The translations under genes and the position numbers were made by a program. This document shows, piece after piece, positions 39,125-63,847 of a DNA stretch of 64,000 bases. A model generated the notes under the pieces. The model was not told where the DNA came from. It did no database searches and was given only the letters and a program-made list of their open reading frames with translations. Source of the DNA: Octopus vulgaris (taxonomy: Eukaryota); assembly GCA_951406725.2 (NCBI GenBank), contig OX597817.1:67208001-67272000 (forward strand). The letters are read 5' to 3'. The first letter of the stretch is position 1; every line of letters begins with the position of its first letter.

Positions 39125-39128
<4 letters not shown>

Positions 39129-39760
39129 TTTTTGGATTTCGTTTGCAAGATTCTTTATATGAGTTCGTGTGTTGAAGCATATTCTGTTGTGTCTGGGGAG
39201 AGTCGTTTTCTTTTTGTGCCTTATAATGTAACACACTCACCGGTAAAATTTACACTTTTTTCTTACTTTTATTTTCCTAAAATTTTCGTTGCGTCTTGCA
39301 ACCTTTTCAATAGTCTTGAGAGTCAAGACTATTGAAAATGTTGTGCTAGTTGTATATAAATATTGATGTTGTATTAATGTCGTCCGTCTTGGCTTCACTC
39401 ATATATAAGTGCAAACGTACATGTGCTTGTCAGTGTTTATGCATGTGTATGTTAGGGTTATATTTATCTGTATGTGTTCATACAGTGAGAATGTGTGAGT
39501 ATGTGTGTGTATGAGCGTGTGCGTGTGTGTATGTGTTTGTGCGTTGGTGTGTGTGTGTGTTCATTCATGTGTATAAGTGCTAATGAGTAAGTTCTTTATT
39601 CTCTGTGTTGGTGCTTGTTTTGTGTTCGTGCGTGTGTATGATTGTATGTGTGAGTGTGTGTATGAGGAGTTTGTGTATGACTGTACATGTGCGCATGCGT
39701 GTGTGTGTGTGTCTGTGCGTGTGTGCGAGTGTGTGCCTGTGTGAGTTCATTGATGTGCGT
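39125..39760. mobile_element. Penelope-like remnant: inverted pLTR piece followed by TG-rich tract
   Basis: Hammerhead-like motif at 39277-39313, short fold-back at 39299-39343, then TG-rich sequence resembling the interior of 26660-29305. Confidence 0.5.
39277..39313 (-). ncRNA. Hammerhead variant with U3-A8 core
   Basis: cta-TTGAAAA-g-gttgc[aagac]gcaac-GAAA-at-TT-tag. Confidence 0.55.
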
Positions 39761-45575: not shown

Positions 45576-45680
45576 GACAAGGCTGCTTTGCAAATATATA
45601 AGAGATTTAATAATGCTTACAGTCAGTTTTTCGAAATCAGTGACAGAAGTCACTAGAAAAACTCTTATGTATTTGCAAAG

Positions 45681-46510
45681 ACGACGTCCTAGGAGGGGCT
45701 CTGGGGTTCGACGAAGACCAGCTTACCAACCTGTTTAAAAAGACTTTCAGGACGGGGTATTTGGATAATTTCCAAAGATCCCTGGCCTGGCAGTGTAATA
45801 GGAATGCTTTACCTGTTCGCGAGAAGTTATCGCGGCACGGAATTTCAGTGCCACCGACATGTCCAAGATGCGGGTTGGACGATGAAACCGTCCAGCACGC
45901 TTTTGTACACTGTCGGCAGTTGTCAGACTTGATAAGTTACGCAGAACACGTGTTATCGCATCTGGGACGAGTACAGCTGTCGGCTGAGTCTATGATTAAG
46001 ATGATACCGCCAACTGGACTCTCGAAGGAAGGTGAGGCAGGTTTTCACTGCACGGTTGCAGTAGTAAAAGAATGCATGTGGCGTACAAGAATGGAAGGAG
46101 TCGCAATAGGATCATTTGTCTCAGGCCCCGGCTTGCTCACTTACTTCAGATATCATCTGAAGAGCAAAATGGGGCTGGAAAAGAAGACCTTACTACGAGG
46201 TGTGTATGAAAAAAGATGGAAAGAAGTGGCGAAAAAGGTGGGTGTCAGAAACCCAGTTTAACTATGGATGGAGAAGAGGAAAGGAAAGCTGCGGGGCCTT
46301 ATAGGTTGCTGGGGTTTAAAATATATCGGTAAGATTTCAATCTAATGTAATGTTATATTAGTCAATGCAAAGGACAATTTAAATACAGTTTTTTGTATAA
46401 TGAATAATCCATATATTTTGGAAATTTTTAAACGAACCACTTAACTGTTTTTTGTATGTATGTCCTGTATTGTTCTTCTATGTACTGATTTTATAATCGT
46501 AATAAAGAAT
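45681..46510 (+). mobile_element. L1/Tx1-clade LINE 3' end (zf-RVT domain, 3' UTR, AATAAA)
   Basis: ORF 45761-46261 has AWQCNRNALPVREKL..CPRCGLDDETVQHAFVHC..MWRTR; aataaa at 46501. Confidence 0.85.
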
Positions 46511-48071: not shown

Positions 48072-49671
48072 CAGTGGGGGGAAATAAATATTCGTAAACG
48101 TCAAAATTCTTTATTTATTTAATTTCTAATGAACATAAATGTGATATACCAATACTATATTTGCATACACATGCATAAGCTAAGAATATGCAAAAGAAAC
48201 TTATAAATTATAGTAACTAAGGAATTTATATTCAATAATAAATATTTAGGGGTGAAAAAAGTATTCGTACAGAACATAAATTACTGATAATTCTGATTTA
48301 ATACTTCGTAGCATAACCATTATTCAGTTCCACTTCAACCAATCTCTTCTTGTAGTTCTTAATCAATGATTCGTATGTTTCTTTAGGAATTTTTTCCCAT
48401 TCTTCTCGACAAATTTTCTTCAAATCTGCAATGCACATTGGGGCTCTTGAATGAATTTTAATTTTCAAATAATGCCACAAATTTTCAATGGGGTTCAAGT
48501 CAGGTGACTGGCTTGGCCATTCTAATAATTTTATATTGTGATCAACAATCCATTTTTTGTAGACTTCGCCGTGTGCTTAGGATCGTTATCCTCTTGTAAA
48601 ACCCACCCTTCACATAGCTGGAGCTTTTCTACATAGTCCCATAAATCATTGTTCAAAATATTCTGGTACATCTCTGCATTCATTCTACCATCTATCACAT
48701 GTAAATTGCCAGTACCATTTGCAGAGAAATACCCCCGCACCATGATGTTGCCACCTCCAAACTTTAGGGTAGGAATTGTGTTTTTGGCGAATAGGCGGTA
48801 CCATCTTTCCTCCGAACATGGCTCCAAACAATTCAATCTTCGACTCGTCTGTCCATAGAACATTTTCCCAGAATGTATCAGATTTATCTTTATGTTCATA
48901 AACAAATTTTAAAAGGGCATCTCTATGCTTTTTAGTCAACAGCGGAGTGTCTCTAGGAGAGCGTGACTTCAGTTCATTCTTATGAAGTTCATTGCTGATT
49001 ATTCGCAGTGTATCACTAGTCTCTGAAGCTAACAAATCTTCTTGCAACTCCTTTCTGGTGATCATTGCGTTTTTTCCTATTCTTCGCTTCATTTTTCTTA
49101 AAGATCTTGGGGAAATCTTGCATGGTGCATGGGATCTTATTCTGTTTCCAACAGTTTCCGATTTTTTTTATATATTTGAATAAATGAATAAATGAAGGGT
49201 GGGTTTTACAAGAGGATAACGATCCTAAGCACACGGCGAAGTCTACAAAAAATGGATTGTTGATCACTTTTACCTGCTTTCCACTGTTCAATAATTAAGT
49301 TTTTCACTGAATTTGAGTTCTTTACTTTTCGCCATAATTACGTTGTCTCAATGCTGAATGAAGAAGCTAGTGTTTTGACACTTAAAAATGACAACTATTG
49401 GAACAAACGAGAAAGTTCTAGTAAAAAAAATTATTTTAACAGTATTTTGTGGCATAGAAAATCATAAATTTATTCTGTGCGAATACTTTTTTCACCCCTA
49501 AATATTTATAATTGTATATAAATTTATTAGTTACTATAATTTATTAGTTTCTTTTGCATATTCTTAGTTTATGCATGTGTATGCAAATATAGTATTGGTA
49601 TATCCCATTTATGTTCATTAGAAATTAAATAAAGAATTTTGACATGTATGAATATTTATTTCCCCCCACTG
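48072..49671 (-). mobile_element. Tc1-like (DD34E) transposon with ~210-bp TIRs; transposase disrupted
   Basis: TA|cagtggggggaaataaatattc ... gaatatttatttccccccactg|TA; [56 protein letters not shown]. Confidence 0.95.
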
Positions 49672-49687
49672 TATAAATATATATATA

Positions 49688-50350
49688 CACAAAGATAATT
49701 TGATAGATGCAACTGAGTGGGCAAACAAAAATATGAGACACAGCGTACTTATTCTATTAGTTTCTTCTTGTGAAACCAGTAAGTTATGGGGATGTAAATA
49801 AACGAACAGCAGTTGTGAAGCAGGGATGAGGGTGAAATACAGAAACAAAGTCACACACATACACTTAAATATATACATACATATATATACGATTGATTTC
49901 TTTAAGTTTCTGTCTACGAAATATATATATATATATGTCTGTGTGTGTGTGTGTATGTACACACACACACACACACACTCACACACACAAAGATAAATTG
50001 TGTGGGCAAACAAAAATATGAGATACTGCCTAGTTGTTTTTTTAATTTTGATAAGCCTGGTACTTATTCTATCAGTTTCTTCTTGTGAAATCAGTAAGTT
50101 ATGGGGATGTAAATAAACGAACACCAGGTGTGAGGCAGTGATGAGGGAGAAATACAAAGACACACACACAGACTTACATATATACATACGATTGATTTCT
50201 TTCAGTTTCTGTCTACAAAATCCACTGACAAGGCTTTGGTTGGCCTGAGGCTATAGCAGAAGACACATGCCAAGTCACCACACTGTGGGACTGACCTGAG
50301 GACCATGTGTTTTGGAACGAAGTTTGTTATCACACAGCCACACCTGCACC
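49688..50350 (-). mobile_element. Diverged SINE family A with tandemly duplicated 3' part
   Basis: tgggcaaacaaaaatatgaga...cagtaagttatggggatgtaaataaacgaaca occurs twice (~49720 and ~50000); head at ~50345. Confidence 0.7.
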
Positions 50351-58535: not shown

Positions 58536-58591
<56 letters not shown>

Positions 58592-58772
58592 ATTAGGGCT
58601 TAGTAAAATAAATTACTTTGCCACATACTGAACTTTCTAGAAATAGCAGCCAAAAAAGTTTTTTAGCCATTTCCACTACTTAAAGAAAATTTCTCTCATA
58701 TAATGTTTACTCAAAATAACTCACGAAGGTATGGAGGTAAAAACAGAAAAATATCACAAGTACAAAGATTAT

Positions 58773-58833
58773 TTGAGAACGTTAACGTTTCTAGATTAGC
58801 CAAATAAACTCAGCATTTCTTTCGTCAGCTCAA
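58773..58833 (-). ncRNA. Minimal type-I hammerhead ribozyme (canonical core)
   Basis: ttgag-CTGACGA-a-aga[..]tct-a-GAAA-cgttaacg-TT-ctcaa. Confidence 0.8.
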
Positions 58834-59335
58834 CATTTCTTATTTTGGATTTGGAAGCACTAAAAAGAAAGAACATACCCTTTGGCGACTTATCACCTCA
58901 GATGACCCGTTCAGACTGCCAGTACTAACAAATTCAAAATGTGCAAGCGAAGATTCACTGCTCTCCCCTTCAACCCACGTGGGTTATCTAGCAAACATTA
59001 TATTTTAACGGTGAGAACCGAGGCAATATGACAGAGAGAAATGAATTATAATATCAACAATTGAGGGTAAAATTAATTAGTTATTAATCAATTTCACCAA
59101 GTATTCAGTATGTAAAAGGACCATTTAAGGCGAATTCAAAATATTACATTATATAATTAGGGCTTAGTAAAATAAATTACTTTGCCACATACTGAACTTT
59201 CTAGAAATAGCAGCCAAAAAGTTTTTTAGCCATTTCCACTACTTAAAGAAAATTTCTCTCAGATAATGTTTACTCAAAATAACTCACGAAGGTATGGAGG
59301 TAAAAACAGAAAAATATCACAAGTACAAAGATTAT

Positions 59336-59396
59336 TTGAGAACGTTAACGTTTCTAGATTAGCCAAATAAACTCAGCATTTCTTTCGTTAGCTCAA
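59336..59396 (-). ncRNA. Second tandem hammerhead copy with G5A core mutation
   Basis: Identical to 58773-58833 except the core reads CTAACGA. Confidence 0.6.
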
Positions 59397-59719
59397 CATT
59401 TCTTATTTTGGATTTGGAAGCACTAAAAAGAAAGAACATACCCTTTGGCGACTTATCACCTCAGATGACCCGTTCAGACTGCCAGTACTAACAAATTCAA
59501 AATGTGCAAGCGAAGATTCACTGCTCTCCCCTTCCACCCTGCTATTTCTAGAAAGTTCAGTATGTGGCAAAGTAATTTATTTTACTAAGCCCTAATTATA
59601 TAATGTAATATTTTGAATTCGCCTTAAATGGTCCTTTTACATACTGAATACTTGGTGAAATTGATTAATAACTAATTAATTTTACCCTCAATTGTTGATA
59701 TATATATATATATATATAA

Positions 59720-60295: not shown

Positions 60296-60611
60296 TCCTT
60301 AAATCCTTAAAAATGTTTTAGCCCGAAGGCTGCGGCCATGCTGGGGCACCACCGCTGAATGCGCTACACTAATTTGTGAATCCACCTCTGATACGTGGGA
60401 CTTGATCAACAAGGGAGTTTGATGCTGCTGCCCGCATCCGCGTCTCCTGTCGTGAGGTAGGTTCATCTGGGACTCCCGACAAGAAGAGATCCAGTTTAGT
60501 TTTAAAGAAACCCACATCCACACCATGTAAGTCTCTCAGGCATTTAGGGAGGATGTTAAAGAGCTGTGGTCCTCTGAAACCCAAGCTGTTGCAGTATCTG
60601 GACCTGTATTT

Positions 60612-60615
<4 letters not shown>
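60296..60615 (-). mobile_element. CR1/L2-like LINE 3' end (ORF2 C-terminus and tail)
   Basis: NSLGFRGPQLFNILPKCLRDLHGVDVGFFKTKLDLFLSGVPDEP..AAASNSL*, then tail ggtggtgccccagcatggccgcagccttcgggctaaaac and a short repeat. Confidence 0.8.
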
Positions 60616-60670
<55 letters not shown>

Positions 60671-60747
60671 TGCAGCGTGGAATGTGTTTGTAAGCCATTT
60701 AAGAAACACACAAAAGCTGTTCGATTCACTTCAACATTTAAGTTTAA

Positions 60748-60797
60748 TTTGTCAAAATATTTTCGTCGCTAAAATCCGCGACCTGTTCACTGACAAA
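60748..60797 (-). ncRNA. Hammerhead variant with G3-C8 core (left arm)
   Basis: Exact reverse complement of 60820-60869. Confidence 0.65.
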
Positions 60798-60819
60798 AAT
60801 CCGTGCTGCGTCACGGATT

Positions 60820-60869
60820 TTTGTCAGTGAACAGGTCGCGGATTTTAGCGACGAAAATATTTTGACAAA
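60820..60869 (+). ncRNA. Hammerhead variant with G3-C8 core (right arm)
   Basis: tttgtca-GTGAACA-g-gtcgc[ggatttta]gcgac-GAAA-atat-TT-tgacaaa: 7-bp stem I, 5-bp stem II, palindromic stem III. Confidence 0.65.
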
Positions 60870-61971
60870 TTAAACTTAAATGTTTTAGCCCGAAGGCTGC
60901 GGCCATGCTGGGGCACCACCGCTGAATGAGCTACACTAATTTGTGAATCCACCTCTGATACGTGGCACTTGATCCGTGCTGCAACGGACCGGCGTATTGT
61001 CCAGCTAGGGAATATATAGGCCACGGAAATCCAGGAAACCGGCTCTATGAGGCTTGGTGACTTGGGAAGGAACTTTATCCTTTGCCTCTTTTATTATTAG
61101 TGGCAGTGTTAACCAAACAAACAAAGACTATTTATCCAGCAAATACGGTGTTAAATAGCCATCCCAACTGATTGGTAGTATCGTATTGTATCACTCTCTC
61201 ACTCTCTCTCCTACCTTATAGTAGTCCTGTATCTAAAATTTTTACGACTCTTTTACTCTATCTTTTAGTCCCCCTCATACTTCTTTCCTCTTTTCTTTTT
61301 CTCGCTCCCCCTCTCTCTCACACATTTCTTGGCCCTCTCTTTTTTTAACTCTCACTTTTCCTCCTCGTTTATCTCCCCTACACCATTCCTTTTGTCTCTG
61401 ATTTTGTTTACTAATACTTCAATCCCATTGCCCCCTACCCTCTCTCCTCCTTCCACTTGACCGGTGTCCAGTCAGCCATGATCTTTCTTTCTTGGTCTGA
61501 CAGATGACCCCCGACACCTCTTATGTCCATCTTCTATGTTCTTGCCTTTAGGCTTTCACTTCATACACGACAGCTCAATTTGAATCGTTCTCAGTCGAAA
61601 GACACCTGTTGTTATATTCTTGTTGCTTGTATTTGTAATTGTGTACCATGTTCTCCGTTTTTTGTATTTGTTGCCGTACACATTCGCAAGCTTTCTTTTA
61701 AAAAATCTAATGCTCTTAGCTTAGACGTTTTGGGGAGCAACCAGATTGAAGTGTCTCACGTGTAACTGCTCGAAAGATTAATGACTTTTGGTAACTTGAC
61801 TGAGGAATGAAGGCTACGAATGACCTGTCTTTTTTTTTCGTATCTCTCTAATTGTTATTTCTCCTGTCCGCCTTTGTATCGTCTATCTGTCCGAATGTTT
61901 TATTGTCCTCTATTGCGTTTTTGTTCCATTACACACACACATGTATATGTGTATATATATATATGCATAAT

Positions 61972-63729: not shown

Positions 63730-63847
63730 TAGTCAATAATAAAAGGGTAAAATTAATTAATTATTAATTAATAATTTTACCAAGTAGTTTTCAGTATGTA
63801 AAAAGACGATTTACGGTATATTTAAAACGTAATGTTTTAAATATACC

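What the first reader, a model, noticed from the sequence alone, without database searches (positions are those of the whole stretch)
60733..60884. G3-C8 'flipped-core' hammerhead encoded on both strands of a perfect 152-bp hairpin
UUUGUCA-GUGAACA-g-GUCGC[ggauuuua]GCGAC-GAAA-auau-UU-UGACAAA has perfect 7-bp and 5-bp stems and all invariant core positions, but C3-G8 is inverted to G3-C8. This double change is known from mutagenesis to rescue activity and is uncommon in natural hammerheads. Standard CUGANGA searches would miss it. The 73-bp arms place one copy on each strand; the enclosing hairpin would compete with ribozyme folding.
Basis: partly seen in the sequence, partly recalled or inferred. 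Interest (0 to 1): 0.75.

Follow-up and report, generated by a model that had tools for sequence, protein, structure and literature searches.

The report
Flipped-core hammerhead in a Penelope retrotransposon
The hairpin is a head-to-head pair of fragments of a jumping gene present in thousands of copies, and each arm carries a hammerhead-shaped RNA motif whose core pair is swapped from C-G to G-C; related jumping genes in the same genome use C-G or U-A at that pair, so this is likely a natural, self-cutting variant, though cutting is untested.

Summary
The motif is no one-off: 4,572 exact matches genome-wide, 0 in the control. It lies in the 5' leader (pLTR) of a Penelope-like retrotransposon (RT plus GIY-YIG), 55 nt ahead of the ORF start. 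G3-C8 is fixed in this family and shared with an older one. Homologous families in the same genome carry C3-G8 or U3-A8, with compensatory stem II changes. The shape otherwise matches the minimal, dimer-type hammerheads of Penelope-like elements. The hairpin is the usual fold-back of these insertions (49 of 87 scored copies) and would block folding here. Cleavage is not shown. None of 100 copies begins at the cut site; 39 begin 56-63 nt upstream, often behind an extra G, which likely marks a capped start. A young sister family has C at position 9, which argues against strict need for cutting. I found no natural G3-C8 hammerhead in print, but three key papers were not held. This scan noted similar G3-C8 motifs before in two other genomes. 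Verdict: new variant of a known kind, interest 0.5.

The parts
60667..60809 (-). Leader (pLTR) copy of Penelope-like family A, from 4 nt inside the inferred transcription start to the first of two fixed 3' ends
   Evidence: 94.6% identity over 147 nt to a tandem element copy in L227; ends compared
60748..60797 (-). G3-C8 minimal type I hammerhead motif, minus-strand copy (G3=60790, predicted cut between 60755 and 60754)
60667..60698 (-). First 10 codons of the element ORF (start codon at 60698)
   Evidence: translation; same start continues into the ORF in L227
60812..60884 (+). Inverted second leader copy, truncated at 60884
60820..60869 (+). G3-C8 minimal type I hammerhead motif, plus-strand copy (G3=60827, C8=60832, predicted cut after 60862)
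60806..60811 (.). Hairpin loop and fold-back junction (4 element bases plus 2 junction bases)
60614..60666 (.). (AT)n tract abutting the element's 3' end
   Evidence: same junction type in other copies
60878..60974 (+). 97-nt duplicate of nearby flank 60311-60407, joined to the right arm through a 7-nt overlap; likely template switch
   Evidence: 98% identity; the source is a dispersed repeat
60972..60983 (-). 12-nt third scrap of the element's 5' end closing the junction
   Evidence: read directly; short, so weak

Best explanation
This is a head-to-head pair of 5'-leader copies of a Penelope-like retrotransposon, and the G3-C8 motif is that family's fixed variant of the minimal hammerhead, likely kept by selection and predicted to cut weakly and only as a dimer. 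[quoted passage not shown] Inferred: capped RNA starts 58-59 nt before the cut site; the RT primes at nicked (TA)n DNA, starts inside the ORF (about nt 31 or 93) and runs to the RNA's 5' end, giving 145-207-nt leader-only copies; the cDNA often folds back or switches template, which makes the hairpin. Single leaders would stay uncut because helix III needs a partner. In tandem read-through RNA two motifs would pair through the AAUAUU palindrome, possibly with help from the element protein, and cut out a unit. At this locus any RNA spanning both arms would form the 73-bp duplex, so this copy is likely inert.
For: Copy number 4,572 against control 0. Link to PLE ORFs; Pfam GIY-YIG E 1.8e-5 above cut-off. 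In 5 long family-A loci of 8.5-9.9 kb (L225-227, L240, L241) a descriptor open to any 3-8 pair found only this motif. G3-C8 is fixed: in 27 copies picked by upstream sequence, G3 26/27 and C8 24/27; stem I pairs 1-7 held in 25-26 of 27 (3 of 30 loci not parsed). Only 143 matches lack G3, and among the 100 listed the one C3-G8 is a family-B copy. Covariation on 12 hand-picked copies of the five families and one B subfamily: 3-8 pair GC 6, CG 4, UA 2; all 72 cells paired; two stem II pairs also change on both sides; slid controls 6-53% paired. Family C (leader 75% identical to A) keeps G3-C8 while N7, loop II, helix III length and one stem I pair change. Extra nucleotide after A9, G10.1-C11.1 and palindromic helix III match PMC4209133. 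C3G/G8C partly restores a PLE hammerhead (PMC11167929). Fold-back in 49 of 87 scored copies, as in PMC3846280 and PMC8557442. Extra G before the inferred start in 11 of 12 copies ending there.
Against: No cleavage data. 0 of 100 copies start within 1 nt of the cut site; genome-wide 42 matches break there against 39 at a control position 4 nt away (by eye about 32 and 15 are junctions, many explained by stem I microhomology or TA tracts). The young family D, with open 1,312-aa ORFs, has C at position 9, so the core may be dispensable in this clade. The nearest-neighbour model does not favour the hammerhead dimer (-27.2 against -29.0 without helix III and -31.3 for another dimer). The inserted base is G, where the published consensus has non-G. 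The covariation set was hand-picked, families B, C and E were found with patterns that fix part of the core, and it reflects few independent events; the count of covarying pairs alone was reached by 129 of 500 shuffles. Homology of C to B downstream of the motif was not above shuffles (101 of 300). About 8 of the 17 extra-G cases could be microhomology with the inverted arm.
Confidence: 0.7

Rival explanations
1. Same origin, but the motif no longer cuts: the fold is kept for another job (protein binding, RT pausing, promoter or translation element) or is a relic, and the G3-C8 state was fixed under relaxed constraint.
For: C at position 9 in the young family D; no copies start at the cut site; hammerhead mutants do not impair insertion in vitro (PMC11167929); Naiad PLEs thrive without canonical hammerheads (PMC8557442); reaching G3-C8 from C-G or U-A needs a mismatched step.
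Against: Three different Watson-Crick states at a long-range tertiary pair, with U4, G5, A6, G12, A13, A14, A15 unchanged in all 12 aligned copies, are hard to get by drift. In family E all 3 G8 copies (U-G twice, C-G once) fall among the 5 with one loop variant, 0 among the other 95 listed, which suggests a paired wobble route.
Confidence: 0.22
2. The 152-bp hairpin itself is the functional unit, for example a two-strand ribozyme switch, a small-RNA precursor or a miniature inverted-repeat transposon.
For: Perfect 73-bp arms, -117.4 kcal/mol; weak microRNA-precursor scores below gathering thresholds.
Against: Arm lengths and junctions differ from copy to copy; the arms are sense and antisense copies of a PLE leader whose fixed ends are shared with unpaired copies; the duplex removes both hammerhead stems.
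Confidence: 0.05
3. Chance resemblance to a hammerhead inside a repeat.
For: The core is short and the reading allows an inserted base and a swapped pair; Rfam gives no hammerhead hit.
Against: 0 of 20,000 shuffles match; it sits where PLE hammerheads sit; homologous families carry the canonical CUGANGA core at the same place.
Confidence: 0.03

Closest known systems
Minimal type I hammerheads of metazoan Penelope-like elements (Cervera and De la Pena 2014, PMC4209133)
   Same: pLTR position, sense orientation, extra nucleotide between 9 and 10.1, G10.1-C11.1, palindromic rudimentary helix III, mostly solo copies, some opposite-strand pairs.
   Different: G3-C8 core: 0 of the 56 rows of their Fig. 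S3 have it (53 C3-G8, 2 U3-A8, 1 U3-G8, my reading; their descriptors did not look for it). The inserted base is G. Stem I is longer (7 bp).
PAc (Poseidon of Anolis) hammerhead and two-site internal RT initiation (Frangieh et al. 2024, PMC11167929)
   Same: Two fixed 3' ends inside the ORF start, AT-rich targets, uncleaved RNA as template, no ends at the cut site.
   Different: There C3G/G8C is an engineered rescue; here it is the natural state. The motif here lies wholly before the start codon. This element has the CX2-5CxxC linker that Poseidon lacks (PMC8557442).
Natural U3-A8 hammerheads (Perreault et al. 2011, PMC3088659; PMC4209133)
   Same: Natural compensatory change at the 3-8 pair; family E here (3,235 pattern matches) is of this kind.
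   Different: U-A is reached by transitions through a U-G wobble; G-C needs two transversions from C-G.
Neptune/Nematis clades of EN+ PLEs (as described in PMC8557442)
   Same: [quoted passage not shown]
   Different: Clade not placed on a tree here; Neptune versus Nematis is unresolved.

Membership tests
Hammerhead ribozyme (type I) | Stems I and II around the core | tested here: met
Hammerhead ribozyme (type I) | Invariant U4 G5 A6, A9, G12 A13 A14, A15.1-U16.1, H17 | tested here: met
   window sequence; alignment A2
Hammerhead ribozyme (type I) | Literal C3 and G8 of the consensus | tested here: not met
   G3 and C8; no Rfam hammerhead hit
Hammerhead ribozyme (type I) | Watson-Crick pair between positions 3 and 8 | tested here: met
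   GC 6, CG 4, UA 2 of 12
Hammerhead ribozyme (type I) | Site-specific self-cleavage after position 17 | not testable with these tools
   no raw RNA reads; 0 of 100 genomic copies start at the site
PLE minimal (dimeric) hammerhead | Located in the pLTR of a PLE, sense strand | tested here: met
PLE minimal (dimeric) hammerhead | Extra nucleotide after A9, G10.1-C11.1, palindromic 15.2-16.2 | tested here: met
   against PMC4209133; the extra base is G, outside their non-G consensus
PLE minimal (dimeric) hammerhead | Active dimer through intermolecular helix III | tested here: inconclusive
   geometry possible, energy marginal
EN+ Penelope-like element | Single ORF with RT and C-terminal GIY-YIG | tested here: met
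   1,025-aa open frame with YVDD, GGAIG, DKS motifs; PF01541. Pfam gave no RT hit, so the RT rests on motifs.
EN+ Penelope-like element | pLTRs in tandem or inverted order, optional tail, ORF start inside the pLTR/tail | tested here: met
   tail here is 62 nt against 30-40 in PMC8557442
Neptune/Nematis clade | CX2-5CxxC linker before the nuclease | tested here: met
Neptune/Nematis clade | Position on the RT tree | not tested
   no reference PLE proteins fetched

The most novel reading that the evidence does not exclude
A catalytically active natural G3-C8 hammerhead, fixed by selection in two families of an animal retrotransposon, within one clade that has sampled three Watson-Crick states (C-G, U-A, G-C) of the core tertiary pair, and not previously described as a natural family.
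Probability: 0.4. Interest if true: 0.65.

Novelty: new variant of a known kind. Interest (0 to 1): 0.5.

Why it matters
The papers I could read report only U3-A8 as a natural change of this core pair; G3-C8 appears there as a laboratory rescue. A family with thousands of G3-C8 copies shows that standard searches undercount hammerheads. One genome supplies matched natural C-G, U-A, G-C and A9C versions, which makes the open question of whether PLE hammerheads must cut directly testable. The extra G at the inferred start, if it is cap-derived, would favour a capped sense RNA as template, a point left open in PMC3846280.

Tried and rejected
Splice-acceptor reading of the 5' hotspot: upstream sequence resembles a branch point and acceptor, but copies keep the AG, stop there and add a G, so a transcription start fits better; not excluded. 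RNA evidence: no RNA holder listed (20 of 21 rows hold the stretch, under four organism labels, none on record as RNA). Four guessed-RNA runs were laid as contigs; contigs cannot show ends and gave nothing on cleavage. Pattern for other G3-C8 families with the same helix III gave 123 matches; nearly all of the 100 listed are family-A point mutants. Pfam found no RT family in any ORF tested and nothing in 2 of 3 long ORFs. Literature: 'hammerhead'+'G3-C8' gave 1 paper, an engineered variant; 'G3C8' gave 0; C3G/G8C gave 2; C3-G8 or U3-A8 gave 2; hammerhead+Penelope-like+octopus gave 1. Lunse et al. 2017, Seehafer et al. 2011 and Przybilski and Hammann 2007 were not held and could already describe natural G3-C8. 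No tree was built, so the direction of the swap rests on parsimony with published PLE motifs.

Full report
Observation. The hairpin has 73-bp perfect arms (60733-60805, 60812-60884) and a 6-nt loop. The 50-mer folds into stems I and II (z -3.4). Shuffled leaders matched 0 of 20,000 times at these stem lengths. Rfam listed no hammerhead among 104 matches at E<=10.

What it belongs to. The window lies in a 2.8-Gb genome that resembles octopus genomes (recalled, not tested). The motif has 4,572 exact matches and the control 0. Copies extend to two fixed 3' ends followed mostly by (TA)n. [quoted passage not shown] In a tandem copy (L227) the leader runs into the next ORF: inferred start +1, cut after +58, start codon +115, fixed ends at ORF nt 31 and 93. 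In 5 long family-A loci this was the only hammerhead-shaped motif. This is an EN+ Penelope-like element with Neptune/Nematis features (PMC8557442, passages and a supplement search seen).

The locus. From left to right: a dispersed repeat (60296-60610, 98% identical to a copy in L022; its minus-strand translation looks like the end of a non-LTR ORF, by recall), an (AT)n tract, a minus-strand leader copy (60667-60809), an inverted copy (60812-60884), a 97-nt duplicate of 60311-60407 entered through a 7-nt overlap, and a 12-nt element scrap. Fold-back is the family norm: 49 of 87 scored copies are followed by an inverted piece (13 of 100 ran past the stretch and were not scored; two arms of one palindrome count separately). 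PMC3846280 (passages seen) describes the same head-to-head junction palindromes. In RNA spanning both arms the hammerhead stems have probability 0.0; in the native leader 0.66-1.0.

Is the swap real? It is fixed in family A. In 27 copies chosen by upstream sequence G3 is in 26 and C8 in 24. Only 143 matches lack G3, and the 100 listed are scattered changes. Other families are homologous by their N-terminal peptides, EN identity of 42% for B and ORF identity of 55% for D. Family C keeps G3-C8 with other N7, loop II and helix III and a U-A to G-C change in stem I (65 matches, about 12 of them family-A type; leader 75% identical; 27 of 30 loci used). Family B has canonical C3-G8 (1,788 matches to a loose pattern against 386 control; 20 of 30 loci were family B). 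Family D has C3-G8 but C9. Family E, found in this window at 39277-39313, has U3-A8 (3,235 matches; 89 of 100 listed are U-A by my count). On 12 hand-picked copies all 72 cells pair, and the 3-8 pair and two stem II pairs change on both sides. These are few independent events, and the search patterns fixed part of the core for B, C and E.

Template ends. Among 100 copies anchored downstream of the motif, 0 begin within 1 nt of the cut, 81 hold the whole core, and 39 begin 56-63 nt upstream. Of the 12 ending at the modal base, 11 have an extra G. A wider count gave 17 G, 9 C, 2 T and 1 A at non-templated junctions, against 5 G of 28 at control junctions (p 5e-6 with the C cases left out). About 8 of the 17 could be microhomology. 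That RTs copy a cap as an extra G is recalled knowledge. So insertions come from uncleaved and likely capped RNA, as for PAc (PMC11167929, parts 1-2 of 4 read). Genome-wide, breaks at the cut site are rare (42 matches against 39 at a control site).

Mechanism. Shown: anatomy, copy number, family states, ends. Inferred: internal RT initiation and run-off at the 5' end make leader-only copies, and fold-back makes the hairpin. Cutting would need two motifs in one tandem transcript pairing through AAUAUU, perhaps with protein help. PMC4209133 (parts 1-2 of 4 and supplement parts 1-2 of 3 read) found low dimer activity for such motifs. PMC11167929 found partial rescue by C3G/G8C and protein-assisted cleavage. 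Against activity: the dimer is energetically marginal, family D has lost A9 while staying young and intact, and the inserted base is G.

Novelty. PMC3088659 (passages) and PMC4209133 report natural U3-A8. PMC3884650 and PMC8495972 (passages) mention G3-C8 only as engineered. The bioRxiv retrozyme paper (10.64898/2026.07.22.740005, part 1 of 5 read; its supplements are closed), PMC6765202 and PMC6155905 (passages) added nothing on this pair. Searches are listed under Tried and rejected; three relevant papers were not held. Two earlier notes of this scan report G3-C8 motifs behind PLE RT genes in other genomes; I did not test them, and a sequence look-up found nothing.

Verdict. A real and well-supported structural variant of a known ribozyme class in a known kind of element. 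The hairpin is ordinary for these elements. Activity is open. Interest 0.5.

Noticed in passing
window 39126-39339, minus strand (motif 39277-39313): Leader copy of a related PLE family (E) with a U3-A8 minimal hammerhead, a short fold-back at its 5' end and a (TA)n junction; 3,235 pattern matches genome-wide; a sublineage shows U3-G8 and C3-G8 states.
   Followed up: partly
L228:5719-5770, L229, L230, L236, L237: Young PLE family D with open 1,312-aa ORFs and many near-identical copies has C instead of A at core position 9.
   Followed up: partly
L242-L341: Sharp 5' end of family-A copies with an extra G, likely a cap signature that maps the transcription start.
   Followed up: partly
window 58581-59701: 163-bp perfect inverted repeat (59051-59213 / 59539-59701) interleaved with direct repeats 563 bp apart; a related stretch lies near 63744-63827.
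   Followed up: no
window 60311-60407 and 60878-60974: Flanking repeat sequence duplicated into the insertion junction by a likely template switch.
   Followed up: partly
L176-L179: Four near-identical copies of a C3-G8 leader subfamily clustered within 220 kb on contig C1, each ending in (ATT)n rather than (TA)n.
   Followed up: no
window 45644-46258 (+) and 49621-50250 (-): Open frames of 205 and 210 codons of ordinary composition, not examined.
   Followed up: no
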